IMG/VR virus record: IMGVR_UViG_3300035670_000138
Location: 64,001-76,727 of that record
DNA length: 12,727 nt
Source of the DNA: a virus
Lineage: Duplodnaviria; Heunggongvirae; Uroviricota; Caudoviricetes
Strand: one strand, 5' to 3'
Made by a program: the position numbers and the translations under genes. Positions 788-7,295 of this stretch are shown one piece after another (position 1 is the stretch's first letter; each line of letters opens with the position of its first letter). Under the pieces are notes generated by a model. That model ran no database searches. It was not told the origin of the DNA and saw only the letters and a program-made list of their open reading frames with translations.

Positions 788-1135
788 TTAGCCGTCTTGT
801 GATAGGCTATCTTTTTTCTGTGCTTCCCATTTTTTCTGAGTCATTCCTTTAGGTACTCTACCAAAAGTTCTGTCTCTAGATTCTCTTTCCATCTCAACCC
901 CTAAAGATTCCAATTCTTTTCTAGCGGTTCTCTTTAGTACATTAAGATTGTTAATATTCTCTCCGCCTTTTAAAACGAACTCTTTAGTTCTTTCATTTCT
1001 AATCATAAATAAAAAGTTGGCTAAATCAAGGATAATTCTATACCTAGCTCCGCTTTTCTTAGAAACAAATTCTCTAATAGATATTACTTGATTTTCTCTA
1101 TGTTTATGTTCTATATATCTTATTCTTTCGCTCAT
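788..1135 (-). CDS. Hypothetical basic protein, 115 aa, between portal and scaffold
   Basis: ATG overlaps the portal TGA (ATGA, 1132-1135) and has a GGAGGT SD inside the portal 3' end, indicating translational coupling. Confidence 0.8.
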   Translation of the reverse strand: MSERIRYIEHKHRENQVISIREFVSKKSGARYRIILDLANFLFMIRNERTKEFVLKGGENINNLNVLKRTARKELESLGVEMERESRDRTFGRVPKGMTQKKWEAQKKDSLSQDG

Positions 1136-3207
1136 ACATTACCTCCGATTATATCATTCGGACTTGTTGGCTGTGGAGGAAGGATACCTTCATCTACACC
1201 TGCAGGAGTTGGCATTCCCGGCATATTAGCAGGAGCTGCTTGCATATTCGGGTCCATTACTTCAGAGTTTACCGGAGCATTAGTTGGAACTTGCGGATTC
1301 TGCATATTAGCAGGAGTACCGCCCGGAGGAGATAATGGCTGCTGATTAGTAATTGTTAATATATTAGGATCAGTTGTCTGTAATAAATTAATATGTTCTT
1401 GAATGTGATCTAATACTGCTTGAACTAACTCGGGATCTCTTCTTAACATATAATCGTTTAGTAATGTCCTATGTTCTTTTATGTGAAGTGCATGCATGTC
1501 CGAGAATAACCCAATAACTTCTTCTCCGTTAAGCATAGCTTCATTTTCACTCTTAATTAAAACCATTTCGTCAGTTTTACTATCAGTCATGAAATCTAAG
1601 TTACCTGTGCTTAATACTGAAAGATATGTCTCAGGAGTTTCAATTAACCCCATTTGTAATAAGTTTTCAGCAATCTGTGCTCTACCTGCAGTTGACTGCA
1701 TAAGTGCGTTACCTACATCTACCACTACTCTGTTAATCGAATTAATATCATCCGATTTAAACTCTTTCATTTCGGTTCTATTGTTTATGCCGGAAATTGC
1801 TGCAATTCTTGGAACATTAGCAAAATCTTTTAGTAAATTAATTAAACCAGTTCCTACGTCTTCCAATAACTGAATGTAAGATTGTTGAAGTCCACTTACA
1901 TATTGTAATGCTTGCGATTGTACTAACGCTAAAGCTGTCCCCGATCTTAACGATTGTTCTGGATTACCTCTAGCAACAGAGTTTACTCCAGATAATGTTT
2001 CCATTGTCTTTTCAATCAACGATATCATTTGATATACTTCAGGTGAAGTTTGAACTAATTGTAAAGCTTCAGGTTTACCCATTTGAGCATTATACTCGAT
2101 AAAGTTCATACCTTCAGCAACTTGCTCTAAACTAACGTCATTACCTCTAGGATTTAAAATGTTCTGAACACCAAATGCATTGATGTTAGTAGTTGCAGTT
2201 GAGTACAAACTATTTAACATTTCTTGAAGAGGCATAAGGTCGAACATGTCCGTATATCCATACGGAGTGCCTAAAATATTAGAAGGAGAAATCCTATAAA
2301 TAGGTAAACTTCTATAAGGCATCATTGTATCTTCTAAAACAATATCTTGATTTAGATATAGAACATATCTTCCGTTTGGAAGCGATTCTGTTCTTTTATG
2401 GAAAAATTCATATACAGGAATATCGTCTGTTTCGCTTTCATCGTTTTGAACAACTCTACTAGTTCTTCTTTCTAGTTTACTTTTAGATCTGATCTCAGTA
2501 ATTTGTTCATATAATTCTGGATATTTAGCTGCAATATCAAACTTGTTTACAAATGTTCTACATAATACCCAAATGTTATCATCATATCTTTCTTTTGTAG
2601 AATCGAAAACAACATCATACGGCGACAATAGTGAAAACTCTGCATCACCTTCATAAATCGGCAAAGGTTCAATTACTTTTCCGTCTTTATCTAGAGGAAC
2701 ACCATCATCATCTGTTTCAAATATGGAACTAGGATCAGGCTCGATATAATCGAAGATTTCGCCCTTTGTACTGTTCCATTCTAATTTTAAATAACCTGAT
2801 CCAAGGACGATTGCGTATTCTACTGCATCTTTTAAAACTCTTTCTAGGCGTTTTTCACGCATATAATAATCTAATAACCCATCACCTAATTTAGCTTGGA
2901 TCATTGACTTCTTATCGGTATTAATTGCTCTACATTTAAACGAAGGTCTTGTAGATGTAACCATTACTAAAATATGTTTAGCTAAGTTTCTATAGTGGTT
3001 TACTGCCATATTGACAATTTCACCTTGCTCTCCACCTAAACTAACTGTATGACCATTATCATAGTAATAACCATGATAGGCTCTCCATGATCTTTCAATC
3101 TTTTCGATATAGTTAGTACGGTTTACACCCTCGAACCAAGTATCGGACTTTCTAATAAGAGTTTTGACTACTTCTTCAGGAGCATCCGCCGCAAAATATT
3201 TGTTCAT
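1132..3207 (-). CDS. Phage portal protein, 691 aa (P22/T7-like size class)
   Basis: Directly downstream of terL with GAGAGG SD. Mostly helical; contains the portal-like 'METLSGVNSVARG...SGTALAL' segment; ends in a Pro/Gln-rich tail. Confidence 0.88.
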   Translation of the reverse strand: MNKYFAADAPEEVVKTLIRKSDTWFEGVNRTNYIEKIERSWRAYHGYYYDNGHTVSLGGEQGEIVNMAVNHYRNLAKHILVMVTSTRPSFKCRAINTDKKSMIQAKLGDGLLDYYMREKRLERVLKDAVEYAIVLGSGYLKLEWNSTKGEIFDYIEPDPSSIFETDDDGVPLDKDGKVIEPLPIYEGDAEFSLLSPYDVVFDSTKERYDDNIWVLCRTFVNKFDIAAKYPELYEQITEIRSKSKLERRTSRVVQNDESETDDIPVYEFFHKRTESLPNGRYVLYLNQDIVLEDTMMPYRSLPIYRISPSNILGTPYGYTDMFDLMPLQEMLNSLYSTATTNINAFGVQNILNPRGNDVSLEQVAEGMNFIEYNAQMGKPEALQLVQTSPEVYQMISLIEKTMETLSGVNSVARGNPEQSLRSGTALALVQSQALQYVSGLQQSYIQLLEDVGTGLINLLKDFANVPRIAAISGINNRTEMKEFKSDDINSINRVVVDVGNALMQSTAGRAQIAENLLQMGLIETPETYLSVLSTGNLDFMTDSKTDEMVLIKSENEAMLNGEEVIGLFSDMHALHIKEHRTLLNDYMLRRDPELVQAVLDHIQEHINLLQTTDPNILTITNQQPLSPPGGTPANMQNPQVPTNAPVNSEVMDPNMQAAPANMPGMPTPAGVDEGILPPQPTSPNDIIGGNV

Positions 3208-3250: not shown

Positions 3251-4777
3251 TTAATCTTTTTTTCGAATATTTAGCAATTTTCTCATAAAATCAAGGGTTT
3301 CGCTGCTATCATTTTTCCATTTTGGAGAGACAAATGTATCCTTTCCTATGTTAATTCCATAGTTTTTAGGGAAGGGGTTCTTTGTTGCTTGAACATTTCT
3401 TACTAAATATATCAAAGCATCAAGGGCATCGGCGTGGGATCTTAATAGTCCAAGCTCGTCCATTCCCTCCAAATGCTTAAACTTATTTAAAAATGTACCA
3501 GACTTAGACGTTTGCCATTGTCCATACTTTACATGATATCTTAAATTCTTACATCTAGGATGAATTATTATCTTATCAGTATCCATCCACCTTCTTACAG
3601 TATCCACCGCCTGTTCCTTATTATGCTTTTCCGTAGGAACAAAGTTCATACCATAGAATCTAGACAGGTCGTTAATTAGCTTTAAGTCGTTATCCATTAT
3701 CCGCAAATAGGGTTCCACCAACTTTTTATGCTTAGTATTGAACCATAATTCTTCTCTATGTAATATTTCACGGTATAGTTTATCTGTAGTCATTTCTGGA
3801 CCATTTATAACATACTCATCCATTATAACTAATTTATTTATATTATAATCATAAAATCCAAAAAGAGCTACAGTTAAATCGTGGAAACCAACGTCGGCTG
3901 CAACATAGAAATCGCAATAATCTGGAATAGTATATTCCTGAACAATTTTAGCTTCATGCTGAGCAAACTCAGGTATGACGGTAGCTTCTGAAATATTAGG
4001 TATTTCGCAAAGATACTCGCATCTAAACTTAATATTGTTTAGTCCACCCGGATATCTCTTAATAATAGATTCTCTTGTTTTATCATTAATCATTGGTGAA
4101 GTATAAAAGTCGAACTTTAGTAACTTACCCACAGCTTCCATAGGGAATACAAATAATTTATGAAACGGATGGTTAGGATCTTTATCATTAGGAGTTGAGG
4201 CTAGAAATATCTTACCTCCGGTAGTATCTGTAGTAGGTGCTAATACTGAATAAACTACTGTCTCAAGTTCATCCATAAATCCTGCCTCATCGCAGATACA
4301 CATATGAGATGTTCCACCTCGAAGATTGTCATAGTTTCCGCCATCAGTTCCTGCTACTTGTATTTCAGATCCATTAGGGAAAGACCATACTTTTTCTTGA
4401 GTTTTCCATTCAGGTTTTAAGTCCAAAGGACAGTCTGCTATAATCTCGGAGATTCTAGGCTTTATAACTCTCTCAACCATTTTTTGTTGAGGACATGCAT
4501 ATTTAATAATTGACTTAGGATTTGCGATACAATACTCAACAGCAATAACACATAAAGTAAATGACTTACCGTATTGTCTTGAAATGAGACATGCTGATAT
4601 ATCCTCTGCACAATTTTTGAAATGATCGTAGATTAGTTTCTGATTACCTACTAGCTTCCAAGAAAGATTAGCTTTTCGCCAAAGTTGCTCAATAGCTTCT
4701 TCTTTACTTAGCTCTTTTTTTCTAGGAGAAGATTTAGGAGGTTTACCATAGGTATTATCCACCTTTTCCGCCTTCAA
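3251..4777 (-). CDS. terL: Terminase large subunit (ATPase plus RNase H-like nuclease)
   Basis: Walker A ISRQYGKS, Walker B ICDEAGF, coupling motif LASTP, nuclease acidic motifs ADVGFHD and HADALDA. Track start is TTG at 4777; GTG at 4762 (AAGGCGG 5 nt upstream, overlapping the previous gene's end) is an alternative. Confidence 0.95.
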   Translation of the reverse strand: MKAEKVDNTYGKPPKSSPRKKELSKEEAIEQLWRKANLSWKLVGNQKLIYDHFKNCAEDISACLISRQYGKSFTLCVIAVEYCIANPKSIIKYACPQQKMVERVIKPRISEIIADCPLDLKPEWKTQEKVWSFPNGSEIQVAGTDGGNYDNLRGGTSHMCICDEAGFMDELETVVYSVLAPTTDTTGGKIFLASTPNDKDPNHPFHKLFVFPMEAVGKLLKFDFYTSPMINDKTRESIIKRYPGGLNNIKFRCEYLCEIPNISEATVIPEFAQHEAKIVQEYTIPDYCDFYVAADVGFHDLTVALFGFYDYNINKLVIMDEYVINGPEMTTDKLYREILHREELWFNTKHKKLVEPYLRIMDNDLKLINDLSRFYGMNFVPTEKHNKEQAVDTVRRWMDTDKIIIHPRCKNLRYHVKYGQWQTSKSGTFLNKFKHLEGMDELGLLRSHADALDALIYLVRNVQATKNPFPKNYGINIGKDTFVSPKWKNDSSETLDFMRKLLNIRKKD

Positions 4778-6102: not shown

Positions 6103-6486
6103 TTATTTTTTATTTCTATCTTTTAACATTTTTAGAACTAACATTTTTCTAGCTAACTCATCATCAATACCTTCAGGAAGAGTTTTCATTGTTCTAGGAT
6201 TAATTTCTGATTCATCCTCTTCAGGTATATCTGCACCGAAATATGCTGCAAGTTTTCTACCTTCTTCTGACATACTAGTATCATGAAATCTACTGTCTTC
6301 ACTGTCACCATAATCTTTAGAAAATTTTGAAGGCTTATTAAATTTGTACTTCTCTACTCTTTCTAATCCTTCTTTATTGAAGTTTTCAAGAAAGTCAGCG
6401 TCACTCATTTCATCAAATGACTCTACTTCTCCGCCATCTTGATATTTCATCTTCTTTAAGGCATCTTTCTTAGAATTACAATTCAT
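6103..6486 (-). CDS. Hypothetical acidic protein, 127 aa, first gene of the late operon
   Basis: AGGAGA SD 6 nt upstream; preceded by the late-type motif at 6499-6513. Contains KKMKYQDGGEV. Confidence 0.8.
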   Translation of the reverse strand: MNCNSKKDALKKMKYQDGGEVESFDEMSDADFLENFNKEGLERVEKYKFNKPSKFSKDYGDSEDSRFHDTSMSEEGRKLAAYFGADIPEEDESEINPRTMKTLPEGIDDELARKMLVLKMLKDRNKK

Positions 6487-6498
6487 AGCATGTCTCCT

Positions 6499-6513
6499 AT
6501 ATATAGTTGTTAA
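6499..6513 (-). promoter_or_regulatory. Putative phage late promoter motif TTAACAACTATATAT (copy 2, head of late operon)
   Basis: Exact 15-bp match to 3221-3235, immediately upstream of the AGGAGA SD of 6103-6486. Confidence 0.6.
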
Positions 6514-6639
6514 ATTTTAGGAATATATTTACTAAAAAATTTGATTTTGGAATAATTTCAATAGGTTGAATGCAAAGTAATAAGCTACCCTTTCCTTATA
6601 TATAAAGGAAATAGTATTTATTACCAGAAATCTTATCGT

Positions 6640-6820
6640 AAGTTACCGATTTAAGGTGTAAGGTAGTTAGCCCCTATGTCACGCCTTAGCTATCCGCCTT
6701 ACGCTCGGCTCTTTTGGAGGTCAATACCGAGTAAGCGACTATATCCACGCTTCCCTAGAGCTTGTTGAAGGTTTCCCCTCGTTTCGCCCGACTTCTTTCA
6801 CGTTCGGATAACTTAGCTAT
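6640..6820 (-). ncRNA. Candidate structured ncRNA or structured 5' leader
   Basis: 6661-6820 is 80/160 GC in an AT-rich intergenic region. 9-bp closing stem AGUUAUCCG/CGGAUAGCU, hairpin GAGGG-GAAA-CCUUC, stem CUUACUCGG/CCGAG(CG)UAAG. G-U pairs work only on the minus strand. Starts at the predicted TSS of the leftward promoter. Confidence 0.55.
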
Positions 6821-6824
6821 AAAT

Positions 6825-6853
6825 AATTTATCACATAAAAATAAATATTGCAA
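6825..6853 (-). promoter_or_regulatory. Leftward sigma70-type promoter TTGCAA-17-TAAATT with extended TG
   Basis: -35 at 6848-6853, -10 at 6825-6830, 17-bp spacer, TGn. Predicted TSS about 6818-6820. Confidence 0.55.
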
Positions 6854-6876
6854 TAAATATTTTATTATGTTATAGT
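6848..6876 (+). promoter_or_regulatory. Rightward sigma70-type promoter TTGCAA-17-TATAGT with extended TG
   Basis: -35 at 6848-6853, -10 at 6871-6876, 17-bp spacer, TG at 6868-6869. Predicted TSS about 6883. Confidence 0.65.
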
Positions 6877-6882
6877 AATATA

Positions 6883-7035
6883 ATGATAGGTTCCGTACAA
6901 AAACCACTTATTCCTTTAATTATAACTTTCGACGAAAACAAAGTAGAATATATATGTACAGTATTAGGACAAAGTATAACTCAAGCATATGAAGTTATCC
7001 ATATGTTCGGAATGGTTGAAGAGGAGGAAGAATGA
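6883..7035 (+). CDS. Hypothetical 50 aa protein, probably leaderless (not in track)
   Basis: MIGSVQKPLIPLIITFDENKVEYICTVLGQSITQAYEVIHMFGMVEEEEE*. ATG is 7 nt after the -10 box; its GAGGAGG tail is the SD of the next gene; ATGA overlap at 7032-7035. Confidence 0.6.
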   Translation: MIGSVQKPLIPLIITFDENKVEYICTVLGQSITQAYEVIHMFGMVEEEEE

Positions 7036-7295
7036 TTGACTACTTAGGATTAGGTTTAGTGCTTATGGTTATATCTATAATGCAGTTTCTTGTTTTTAGA
7101 AAATACAAATCAATTAATATTATACAAAATTTATTTATATCAATATTCTCAAGTTTGGCAGTAATCGTGTCGGGGGTAGGAGGACTACTTTTAGTGGTGT
7201 CTGAACTGTACTATAAACTGATCCTTCTACTCGGGGGTATTGACATAGCAGATTTCCTTACTTTTCTAGGAAAGCAAAAGGAAGAAGATAAATGA
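7032..7295 (+). CDS. Small membrane protein, 87 aa, 2-3 hydrophobic segments
   Basis: GAGGAGG SD, ATGA overlaps at both ends, long hydrophobic runs. Confidence 0.8.
   Translation: MIDYLGLGLVLMVISIMQFLVFRKYKSINIIQNLFISIFSSLAVIVSGVGGLLLVVSELYYKLILLLGGIDIADFLTFLGKQKEEDK

What the first reader, a model, noticed from the sequence alone, without database searches (positions are those of the whole stretch)
6640..6820. Candidate novel structured RNA upstream of the packaging operon
Seen: a 50%-GC island in an AT-rich intergenic region, starting at the predicted TSS of the leftward promoter. The minus-strand fold has a 9-bp closing stem (6813-6805 with 6696-6688) enclosing a GNRA hairpin GAGGG-GAAA-CCUUC (6780-6767) and a stem CUUACUCGG/CCGAG-CG-UAAG (6735-6727 with 6708-6698) with an inner CUC-CAAAA-GAG hairpin. 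G-U wobbles occur only in the minus orientation, which favours RNA over a DNA cruciform. An AUAGCUAAG direct repeat at both ends allows an alternative register, as in a switch. Inference: a trans-acting phage sRNA or a regulatory leader gating late/packaging gene expression.
Basis: partly seen in the sequence, partly recalled or inferred. Interest (0 to 1): 0.7.

Follow-up and report, generated by a model that had tools for sequence, protein, structure and literature searches.

The report
New structured RNA family in phages
The GC-rich island is the gene for a roughly 230-base folded noncoding RNA, one member of a previously uncatalogued RNA family found in dozens of uncultured phages, often in two copies per genome; what it does is unknown.

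Summary
On the minus strand, 6822-6590, lies a noncoding RNA gene that starts 0-3 nt after a sigma-70-type promoter.

Energy alone gives no support (z = -0.69). Comparison does. Homologues occur in at least 30 viral or metagenomic contigs. In 33 distinct sequences, 91.5% of pair cells are paired (60% when shuffled), and 45 of 50 pairs show compensatory changes.

- **Fold:** a four-way junction (P1/P2, P3, P4, P5) followed by a 3' domain (P6-P8).
- **Tertiary contacts:** a GAAA tetraloop with an 11-nt-receptor-like loop, present together or absent together, and a covarying kissing interaction between the P4 and P5 loops.
the closing stem, the GNRA hairpin and the CUCGG/CCGAG stem are confirmed. 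The CUUA/UAAG pairing, the inner CUC/GAG hairpin and the "switch" are not.
- **Known families:** no Rfam family matches.

A diverged second copy ("type 2") sits 4.4-5.6 kb away in related phages. It follows the phage late-promoter motif and has no downstream gene. In all 11 loci examined, the same motif also lies between the type-1 RNA and the first packaging ORF. A stand-alone, trans-acting folded RNA is therefore more likely than a leader. Function is undetermined. The scan had not noted this RNA on other DNA.

The parts
6848..6853 (-). -35 hexamer TTGCAA of the leftward promoter. It is palindromic, so it also serves as the -35 of the rightward early promoter.
   Evidence: Read. The rightward partner TTGCAA-17-TATAGT was listed. 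Homologues have TTGACA at the same place.
6825..6833 (-). Extended -10 (TGa-TAAATT). The predicted start is about 6818.
   Evidence: Read. The spacing to the first paired base is conserved in type-1 homologues. No transcript data.
6590..6822 (-). Type-1 structured noncoding RNA (extent of the covariance-model match). The true 3' end may lie some 20-25 nt further, near 6565.
   Evidence: R1 scores 227 bits and R2 199 bits. All six frames contain stops in every member.
6683..6817 (-). 5' domain: a four-way junction closed by P1a, P1 and P2.
   Evidence: Coordinates. Pair counts.
6805..6813 (-). P1 5' strand AGUUAUCCG. It pairs with 6696-6688.
   Evidence: All 12 pairs of P1a plus P1 show compensatory changes.
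6688..6696 (-). P1 3' strand CGGAUAGCU.
6811..6815 (-). 5' strand (UAAGU) of the 11-nt-receptor-like internal loop between P1a and P1.
   Evidence: this loop is present in 5 of 5 members that have a GAAA loop on P3 and absent in 7 of 7 that lack one.
6685..6690 (-). 3' strand (GCUAAG) of the receptor-like loop.
   Evidence: The canonical CCUAAG/UAUGG motif is recalled from the literature.
6801..6803 (-). P2 5' strand ACG. It pairs with CGU at 6703-6701. The first pair covaries (A-U, G-C, C-G).
   Evidence: 100% paired.
6790..6800 (-). J2/3, UGAAAGAAGUC. The U(G/U)AAA core is near-invariant across the family.
   Evidence: Alignments.
6758..6789 (-). P3 arm with a GAAA tetraloop (6775-6772).
6753..6757 (-). 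J3/4, UAGGG, conserved.
6733..6752 (-). P4 hairpin (AAGCG / CGCUU) with loop L4.
   Evidence: 100% of cells paired; 3 of 5 pairs compensatory.
6704..6731 (-). P5 hairpin (outer CUCGG/CCGAG) with the conserved 11-nt loop L5 (6722-6712).
6744..6746 (-). L4 bases GGA, which pair with L5 bases UCC (6718-6716) as a kissing-loop pseudoknot.
   Evidence: three pairs are 100% paired in 17 sequences with GC/AU/UA/CG swaps. This helix was not part of the model used to align.
6716..6718 (-). L5 partner of the kissing interaction.
6697..6700 (-). AAGG bulge between P2 and P1, opposite the single A at 6804. Near-invariant as AA(G/A/C)G.
6593..6673 (-). 3' domain: P6 (6673-6661), P7 (6657-6623, with a conserved 15-nt loop) and P8 (6609-6593).
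   Evidence: The domain is variable or absent from the alignment in distant members.
6500..6514 (-). Late-promoter motif TTTAACAACTATATA, between the RNA and the first ORF.
   Evidence: 6 good copies on the late strand of this genome, each just upstream of a ribosome-binding site and ATG; present in all 11 type-1 loci examined and directly before every type-2 RNA.
6103..6486 (-). First ORF (127 aa, no family) of the leftward operon that leads to terL (3251-4777) and portal (1132-3207).

Best explanation
Window 6822-6590 (minus strand) is the gene for a stand-alone structured noncoding RNA, which I call type 1. It belongs to a previously uncatalogued family carried by many uncultured tailed phages.

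**Transcription.** Host RNA polymerase transcribes it from a sigma-70-type promoter that stands back-to-back with the early promoter.

**Fold.** The RNA forms a compact tertiary structure.
- P1a/P1/P2 close a four-way junction with purine-rich, near-invariant joining strands.
- The GAAA loop of P3 docks in an 11-nt-receptor-like loop in P1.
- The loops of P4 and P5 pair with each other.
- A 3' domain (P6-P8) follows.

**How it most likely works.** I think it acts in trans as a folded RNA: the RNA part, or a decoy, of an RNA-protein complex, or possibly a ligand-binding or catalytic RNA. I do not think it is a leader that gates the packaging operon. Type 1 would be made early. The paralogous type 2 in related phages would be made from the phage late-type promoter.

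**Shown:** the gene's conservation, its noncoding nature, its strand, its secondary structure and two tertiary contacts, its independence from a downstream ORF in type-2 and other members, and the absence of any Rfam match.

**Inferred:** the transcription start and timing, action in trans, and the nature of the partner.

**My odds:** real structured RNA family 0.95; independent gene rather than cis leader 0.7; protein-binding or ribonucleoprotein mechanism specifically about 0.35.
For: **Homologues.**
- nhmmer and blastn find the element upstream of terL in related viral contigs.
- Pattern scans add more.
- Covariance models R1 and R2 score 12 type-1 copies at 171-244 bits, 5 type-2 copies at 49-160 bits and 17 distant members at 27-60 bits.

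**Structure.**
- RNAalifold on a plain MAFFT alignment of 6 sequences gives 53 pairs, 25 of them with compensatory changes.
- On 17 sequences, 93.4% of cells are paired against 65.4% when shuffled, 41 of 50 pairs are compensatory, and slid controls give 33-45%.
- On 33 distinct sequences the figures are 91.5% against 60.0%, and 45 of 50 pairs.
- The kissing loop was not part of the model, yet three of its pairs are 100% paired with swaps.
- The tetraloop and receptor co-occur: 5 of 5 members have both and 7 of 7 have neither.

**Noncoding.** Every member has stops in all six frames. Indels of 8 and about 25 nt occur between members.

**Selection.** The RNA is an island of 70-75% nucleotide identity, like terL and portal. 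The flanking small ORFs do not align except in the closest relative.

**Independence from downstream genes.**
- The late-promoter motif lies between the RNA and the first ORF in all 11 loci examined.
- Type 2 sits right after that motif and is followed by terminators and convergent genes.
- No conserved neighbouring ORF lies on its strand.
- The distant group L082/L084/L085/L070 is likewise convergent with its neighbours.

**Not a known family.**
Against:
- Type 1 has no recognisable terminator before the packaging operon. Its transcript may therefore read into the operon and also serve as a leader.
- About half of the distant members stand co-directionally at the head of, or inside, operons. 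That placement also fits a cis-acting role.
- No partner protein or ligand is identified.
- The CM-derived alignments lean towards the modelled structure. The MAFFT-based results and the unmodelled kissing loop do not have this bias.
- Relatives L050 and L051 lack the RNA yet keep the late promoter. The RNA is therefore dispensable for this phage lineage.
Confidence: 0.6

Rival explanations
1. Cis-acting leader that modifies the transcribing polymerase: a processive antiterminator in the manner of HK022 put or Bacillus EAR RNA. It would let transcription from the sigma-70 promoter run through the long leftward operon.
For: - The RNA begins at the promoter, and no terminator-like site lies between it and the roughly 40-kb leftward gene block.
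- Several distant members sit at the head of early operons that carry recombination genes: L061 (exonuclease VIII) and L078 (Sak4). Others sit inside operons: L080 (Erf) and L087 (RecT).
Against: - Type-2 copies and the L082/L084/L070 group have only terminators and convergent genes downstream.
- The operon has its own conserved promoter motif downstream of the RNA.
- The RNA is three times the size of put and has a different architecture.
Confidence: 0.17
2. Riboswitch-like sensor: the four-way junction binds a metabolite, and the 3' domain sets read-through or RNA fate.
For: The fold shows features typical of aptamers: conserved joining strands around a multi-helix junction, side-by-side helices locked by a loop-loop contact, and a tetraloop-receptor clamp.
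Against: - There is no regulated ORF for type-2 and several other members.
- No alternative terminator or anti-terminator, and no sequestered ribosome-binding site, is present.
- The 3' domain is itself conserved in sequence.
- No Rfam riboswitch matches.
Confidence: 0.07
3. Ribozyme, either self-processing or acting in trans.
For: The size (140-250 nt), the two tertiary contacts and the near-invariant junction nucleotides match the complexity of natural ribozymes.
Against: No known ribozyme model matches. No substrate or cleavage site can be named. Nothing was tested.
Confidence: 0.08
4. Packaging or assembly RNA that multimerises through intermolecular L4-L5 pairing, like phi29 pRNA or the ROOL and GOLLD cages.
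For: - Type 1 always lies next to the packaging operon.
- A 3-4 nt loop-loop complementarity covaries. Covariation cannot tell pairing within one molecule from pairing between molecules.
Against: - The phage has an ordinary TerL terminase (Terminase_6N, phrog_2) and a P22-like portal.
- The Rfam pRNA model gives no match.
- Type-2 and distant members lie far from packaging genes.
- The geometry (P4 plus the kissing helix about as long as P5) allows an intramolecular contact. This point is inference.
Confidence: 0.05
5. Not an RNA at all: a DNA-level element (origin, pac site, cruciform) or a small protein gene.
For: The element sits at a divergent-promoter junction where GC skew turns. One 50-aa ORF overlaps it (6755-6907).
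Against: - Compensatory changes include many G-U pairs on one strand only.
- The tetraloop and receptor vary together as modules.
- No iterons are present.
- Every frame has stops in every member.
Confidence: 0.02

Closest known systems
GOLLD, ROOL and OLE-type large 'ornate' bacterial and phage noncoding RNAs (Rfam; cryo-EM study PMC12286853)
   Same: These are stand-alone, phage- or prophage-associated RNAs with elaborate tertiary structure. They were found by comparative genomics and their biochemical function is unknown. Kissing loops are prominent in them.
   Different: There is no sequence or structure match. This RNA is much smaller (140-250 nt against roughly 500-800). Multimerisation is untested here. 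Two paralogous copies under different promoter types are not a described feature of those RNAs.
phi29 pRNA (Rfam RF00044)
   Same: A phage-encoded RNA of about 120-174 nt, made from an early promoter, with a helical junction and two loops whose 4-nt complementarity covaries.
   Different: The model does not match. The phage here uses a TerL-type terminase, not the gp16 ATPase. The second copy and the distant members are unlinked to packaging genes. Whether the loops pair within or between molecules is unknown.
HK022 put RNA and Bacillus EAR RNA (cis-acting processive antiterminators; from my own knowledge)
   Same: A structured RNA placed right after a promoter at the head of a long phage or bacterial operon.
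   Different: put is about 70 nt with two hairpins. Members of this family also occur with no gene downstream.
Junction-type riboswitch aptamers (the purine class with its L2-L3 loop-loop contact; c-di-GMP-I with a tetraloop-receptor)
   Same: The same building principles: conserved junction strands, parallel helices tied by a loop-loop contact, and a GAAA tetraloop with an 11-nt receptor.
   Different: No expression platform and no consistently regulated gene. The RNA is larger. No model matches.
Candidate structured RNAs mined from IMG/VR (PMC10690425, 8,495 'DNAVirus_N' motifs of 29-151 nt)
   Same: The same data source and the same kind of evidence. Fragments of this RNA may be among them.
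   Different: That catalogue gives no function, and its motifs are shorter than this RNA. I could not check overlap because the supplementary files are not held.

Membership tests
Any Rfam 15 family (includes RNase P, tmRNA, 6S, SRP, pRNA, riboswitches, ribozymes, GOLLD/ROOL/HEARO/raiA, IMES, and the Weinberg 2010/2017 motifs) | A covariance-model match at or near the family's gathering score | tested here: not met
   No hit at E<=1 on the whole window or at E<=10 on 6500-6900. Nothing at gathering score in the whole 76.7-kb genome. Nothing over the RNA in 12 homologous loci at E<=1-10.
tRNA / tmRNA | Cloverleaf or tRNA-like domain recognised by ARAGORN | tested here: not met
   No gene found in the window or in the whole genome.
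phi29-type pRNA | Match to the pRNA model | tested here: not met
phi29-type pRNA | Works with a phi29-type gp16 packaging ATPase and connector | tested here: not met
   The packaging genes are TerL (Terminase_6N, phrog_2) and a P22-like portal.
phi29-type pRNA | Intermolecular loop-loop pairing that builds a ring | tested here: inconclusive
   A covarying L4-L5 complementarity exists. Covariation cannot separate pairing within one molecule from pairing between molecules.
Riboswitch / cis-regulatory leader | Lies in the 5' UTR of the regulated gene, with an expression platform (alternative terminator or RBS-sequestering helix) | tested here: not met
   No terminator-like site in 6400-7100. A separate promoter motif lies between the RNA and the ORF. 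Type-2 and other members have no downstream gene.
Riboswitch / cis-regulatory leader | Binds a specific ligand | not testable with these tools
   Needs in-line probing or ITC.
put / EAR-type processive antiterminator | Acts in cis on the polymerase that made it, with terminators downstream in the same operon | tested here: inconclusive
   The position fits for type 1 and about half of the distant members, but not for type 2 or the L082 group. The activity itself cannot be tested here.
GAAA tetraloop with 11-nt receptor (a tertiary motif, not a family) | A GAAA loop together with an asymmetric internal loop CCUAAG / UAUGG (consensus recalled from the literature) | tested here: met
   One search shows L002 UCUAAG/UAUGG, L012 UCUAAG/UAUGA, L024 CCUAAU/GAUGG and the window GCUAAG/UAAGU, each with a GAAA loop on P3. 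Seven members have neither part. Docking itself is inferred.
Hfq-type base-pairing small RNA | A short seed complementary to conserved mRNA targets, with a terminator hairpin and U tail | not tested
   I ran no target search, because the host is unknown and seed matches in a 77-kb genome are expected by chance. Type 1 has no U-tailed terminator.

The most novel reading that the evidence does not exclude
This is a new functional class of phage RNA: either a ribozyme or the RNA core of a ribonucleoprotein or RNA-only assembly. Many unrelated tailed phages would use it to act on a conserved host process. The early (sigma-70-driven) and late (phage-promoter-driven) paralogues would do the job at different stages of infection.
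Probability: 0.2. Interest if true: 0.9.

Novelty: new variant of a known kind. Interest (0 to 1): 0.7.

Why it matters
Large RNAs whose tertiary structure is backed by covariation are rare, and those studied so far have usually turned out to be ribozymes, riboswitches or the cores of RNA-protein machines.

This one has three features that make it worth pursuing:
- It is widespread: at least 30 viral contigs, GC 31-51%, genomes of about 36-85 kb.
- It is often present twice per genome, under two different promoter types.
- It is small enough (a core of about 140 nt) for direct biochemistry and structure determination.

It also gives a conserved landmark for annotating an abundant family of roughly 80-kb uncultured aquatic phages whose late transcription apparatus is still unidentified.

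Tried and rejected
**Searches that found nothing**
- DNA search of the island against 50,697 cultured phage records: no match. TerL by tblastn finds nothing closer than 33% identity, so there is no cultured relative and no host.
- The first ORF (127 aa) has no relatives in viral contigs.
- A pattern scan of 185,579 prokaryote genomes gave only chance matches (19 bits or less, local). No cellular or prophage copy was found by that narrow test.
- The supplement of PMC10690425 is not held.
- Two literature searches found no description of this RNA.

**Resemblances I considered and dropped**
- *RNase P.* The window has stretches that look like CR-I (GUGAAAGAAGUC) and CR-V (ACAUAGGGGCU). The GAAGUC part is not conserved in short type-1 or type-2 members, the order of the blocks differs, and no RNase P model matches.
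- *5S rRNA loop C.* ACUCAGAAG is shared with some members, but it is confined to a subset.
- *Cobalamin riboswitch.* The RNA has AGGGAA followed by a hairpin, but no B12 box and no model hit.
- *Kink-turn at P2/P1.* The G·A at position 1 fits, but position 2 is a Watson-Crick pair.
- *tRNA-like anticodon loop for L6.* The purine-37 rule is not kept.

**Other tests**
- A second long-range contact, J2/3 with L7 (3 bp), has only weak support: 14 of 500 shuffles reach the observed pairing. I have not included it in the model.
- The small ORFs just upstream of type-2 copies are not homologous to one another, so they are not a conserved partner.
- Relatives L050 and L051 (TerL 62% and 56% identical) have other GC-richer noncoding DNA in the same slot. 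It does not match the model even without filters, and the two inserts are unrelated to each other.
- L6 contains UAACAAC, the core of the late-promoter motif, in 5 of 12 type-1 copies. The loop varies freely in the others, so I treat this as coincidence.

Full report
**Setting.** The window is the last 12.7 kb of a 76.7-kb IMG/VR virus contig (91% complete, GC 33.6%).
- Leftward genes from 6486 encode small proteins, TerL (3251-4777) and a P22-like portal (1132-3207). They continue as a roughly 40-kb late block.
- Rightward genes from 6883 are small early-type ORFs.
- Elsewhere the phage encodes a class II ribonucleotide reductase, a PD-(D/E)XK nuclease, DnaB, a B-family polymerase, ThyA and ClpP.
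- The genome holds no tRNA and no Rfam family.
- No cultured relative exists in the phage collection.

**The observation.**
- The GC island is real: 0.49-0.52 against a mean of 0.336.
- The sequence by itself does not fold better than shuffles (z = -0.69 minus strand, -0.54 plus strand).
- The 9-nt direct repeat is present.
- The leftward promoter is TTGCAA-17-TGaTAAATT. It is weak by consensus and was not listed by the scanner. It ends 7 nt before position 6818, and the first paired base is 6817.

**Homologues.**
- TerL relatives at 57-71% identity brought in eight viral loci. nhmmer found the noncoding element in five of them, at about 75% identity.
- Pattern scans of viral and metagenome collections added more.
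- Against these relatives the RNA is an island of nucleotide conservation comparable to terL and portal, while the small ORFs around it mostly fail to align.
- All six reading frames carry stops in every member. Members differ by indels of 8 and about 25 nt.

**Secondary structure.**
- RNAalifold on a plain MAFFT alignment of six sequences predicted 53 pairs, 25 with compensatory changes.
- I wrote a consensus structure and built covariance models R1 and R2.
- On 17 sequences, 93.4% of pair cells are standard pairs against 65.4% in shuffles and 33-45% when partners are slid. Forty-one of 50 pairs change on both sides.
- On 33 distinct sequences the figures are 91.5% against 60.0%, and 45 of 50.
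- These alignments are fitted to the model, so they lean towards it. The MAFFT results and the contact described under *Tertiary contacts* do not have this bias.
- G-U pairs are common on this strand, which fixes the functional strand as the window's minus strand.

**The fold** (window coordinates).

| Element | Coordinates | Sequence or note |
|---|---|---|
| P1a | 6817-6815 / 6685-6683 | |
| Internal loop | | UAAGU / GCUAAG |
| P1 | 6813-6805 / 6696-6688 | |
| Unpaired A | 6804 | opposite an AAGG bulge at 6700-6697 |
| P2 | 6803-6801 / 6703-6701 | |
| J2/3 | 6800-6790 | UGAAAGAAGUC |
| P3 | 6789-6758 | GAAA loop |
| J3/4 | 6757-6753 | UAGGG |
| P4 | 6752-6733 | |
| P5 | 6731-6704 | 11-nt loop |
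| P6, P7, P8 | down to 6593 | 3' domain |

The CUUA/UAAG pairing and the CUC/GAG inner hairpin are replaced by P4, P2 and the loop-loop contact.

**Tertiary contacts.**
- *Loop-loop pairing.* A blind search for stacked covarying pairs among unpaired columns found L4 pairing with L5. Three pairs are 100% paired in 17 sequences, with variants such as GGA/UCC, GAG/CUC, GGAG/CUCC, GAAG/CUUC, GUUU/AAAC, AGAG/CUCU and AACA/UGUU. This helix was not in the model.
- *Tetraloop and receptor.* The five "long" type-1 members all have a GAAA loop on P3. They also have, between P1a and P1, an internal loop that matches the classical 11-nt receptor (CCUAAG/UAUGG, recalled from the literature). The seven "short" members have a stub hairpin in place of P3 and a continuous P1. 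The two parts are gained or lost together, as expected of docking partners.
- *Possible third contact.* A three-pair J2/3-L7 interaction is only weakly supported.

**A second copy.**
- The models found a diverged paralogue, type 2, 4.4-5.6 kb upstream on the same strand in L012, L018, L058 and L016, and in the complete 84.7-kb genome (L057). L049 has type 2 only.
- Type 2 keeps P1-P8 and the kissing loop, with GNRA loops (GCAA, GCGA, GUGA) on P3.
- It starts directly after the motif TTTAACAACTAT and is followed by terminator hairpins and convergent genes. The small ORFs next to it are unrelated to one another.
- The same motif occurs six times on the late strand of this genome, each just before a ribosome-binding site and ATG. 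One copy is at 6514-6500, between the RNA and the first packaging ORF. It occupies that position in all 11 type-1 loci examined.
- An earlier follow-up in this scan had read the motif as the late promoter, with its reader unidentified (e1-1719143). My counts agree with the motif's placement.
- In this contig I found type 1 only. The early gene block is still open at the contig end, so type 2 may lie beyond it.

**A wider family.**
- A core pattern (GACCGTKAAA, then 64-94 nt, then AGCGGAANGC) hit 37 places in viral contigs.
- R2 scores 17 new members at 27-60 bits.
- Most pattern hits have complementary flanks of quite different sequence, 9-14 of 14 paired against 5.3 ± 1.8 for random flanks.
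- Many distant matches cover only the four-way-junction domain of about 140 nt. Their 3' parts differ, although an ACAUA-plus-hairpin theme and a tail resembling CUAUGCCAAA recur.
- Host contigs span GC 31-51% and 36-85 kb. Some carry two copies (for example L074 and L086).
- Contexts vary:
  - heads of operons with recombination genes: exonuclease VIII in L061 and Sak4 in L078;
  - positions inside operons: Erf in L080 and RecT in L087;
  - next to HNH nucleases: L061, L062 and L066;
  - between convergent structural genes: the L082 group.
- No Rfam family matches any of these members.

**Interpretation.** The data establish a conserved, strand-specific, noncoding RNA with a defined secondary structure and two tertiary contacts. 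Its placement argues for an independent gene whose product works as a folded RNA in trans:
- it has its own promoter;
- a separate promoter serves the neighbouring operon;
- it has paralogues and distant members with nothing downstream.

The sigma-70 promoter, back-to-back with the early promoter, suggests early synthesis of type 1. The late-type motif suggests late synthesis of type 2. Both timings are inferences.

What the RNA binds or does is open. I rank the possibilities in this order:
1. a protein-bound or decoy RNA;
2. a cis-acting antiterminator;
3. a ribozyme;
4. a ligand sensor;
5. a multimeric packaging RNA.

A DNA-level or coding explanation is excluded by the covariation and the stop codons.

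**Limits.** There is no expression evidence, no host and no cultured phage. E-values from the quickly calibrated models are rough. Overlap with the published IMG/VR motif catalogue (PMC10690425) could not be checked.

Noticed in passing
window 6500-6514 (minus strand), and upstream of every type-2 RNA (e.g. L012:400-420): The phage late-promoter motif AAWTTAACAACTATATAT also directly drives the type-2 RNA gene. About 45-50 nt upstream of the packaging-operon copy, a second conserved block (TTGTAATTATT...) is kept even in relatives that lack the RNA (L050, L051). Type-2 copies have their own conserved upstream block, TGTTACGGAAAAnnTACG.
   Followed up: partly
L050:1930-2270 and L051:8330-8660: More distant relatives (TerL 62% and 56% identical) carry a different GC-richer noncoding insert of about 300-400 nt in the same slot between the early promoter and the late promoter. 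It does not match the RNA model, and the two inserts are unrelated to each other.
   Followed up: partly
L002:1075-1115, L035:3715-3750, L003:4135-4175: On the strand opposite the RNA, a sigma-70-like promoter (TTGACA or TTGAAT, 16-17 nt, TATAGT or TATATA) overlaps the P8 hairpin. It would make an antisense transcript across the RNA gene. The window itself lacks it.
   Followed up: no
loci L061, L078, L080, L087, L062, L066: Distant members of the RNA family sit within one or two genes of single-strand annealing or recombination genes from four different families (exonuclease VIII, Sak4, Erf, RecT). In three loci they sit next to HNH nucleases. This may only reflect a shared early-region position.
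   Followed up: partly
about 10-25 nt downstream of P8 in type-1, type-2 and distant members (window approx. 6565-6580): A short tail resembling CUAUGCCAAA (in some members UUCCUGUGCCCAAA) recurs after the last hairpin. The RNA may therefore extend beyond the modelled 3' end.
   Followed up: no
window 6664-6670 (loop L6): Loop L6 reads UAACAAC, the core of the late-promoter motif, in 5 of 12 type-1 copies. It varies in the others, including the window (CUAACUA). Probably coincidence.
   Followed up: partly
TerL homologues P0025, P0034, P0092, P0094, P0104, P0115: Several TerL relatives are 630-850 aa long and carry intein and LAGLIDADG domains (PF14890, PF14528). Inteins have therefore invaded the terminase of this phage group.
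   Followed up: no
window 6824-6877: A 30-nt imperfect palindrome is centred on the shared TTGCAA -35 hexamer of the two divergent promoters. In relatives the two -35 hexamers are separate (TGTCAA ... TTGACA).
   Followed up: partly
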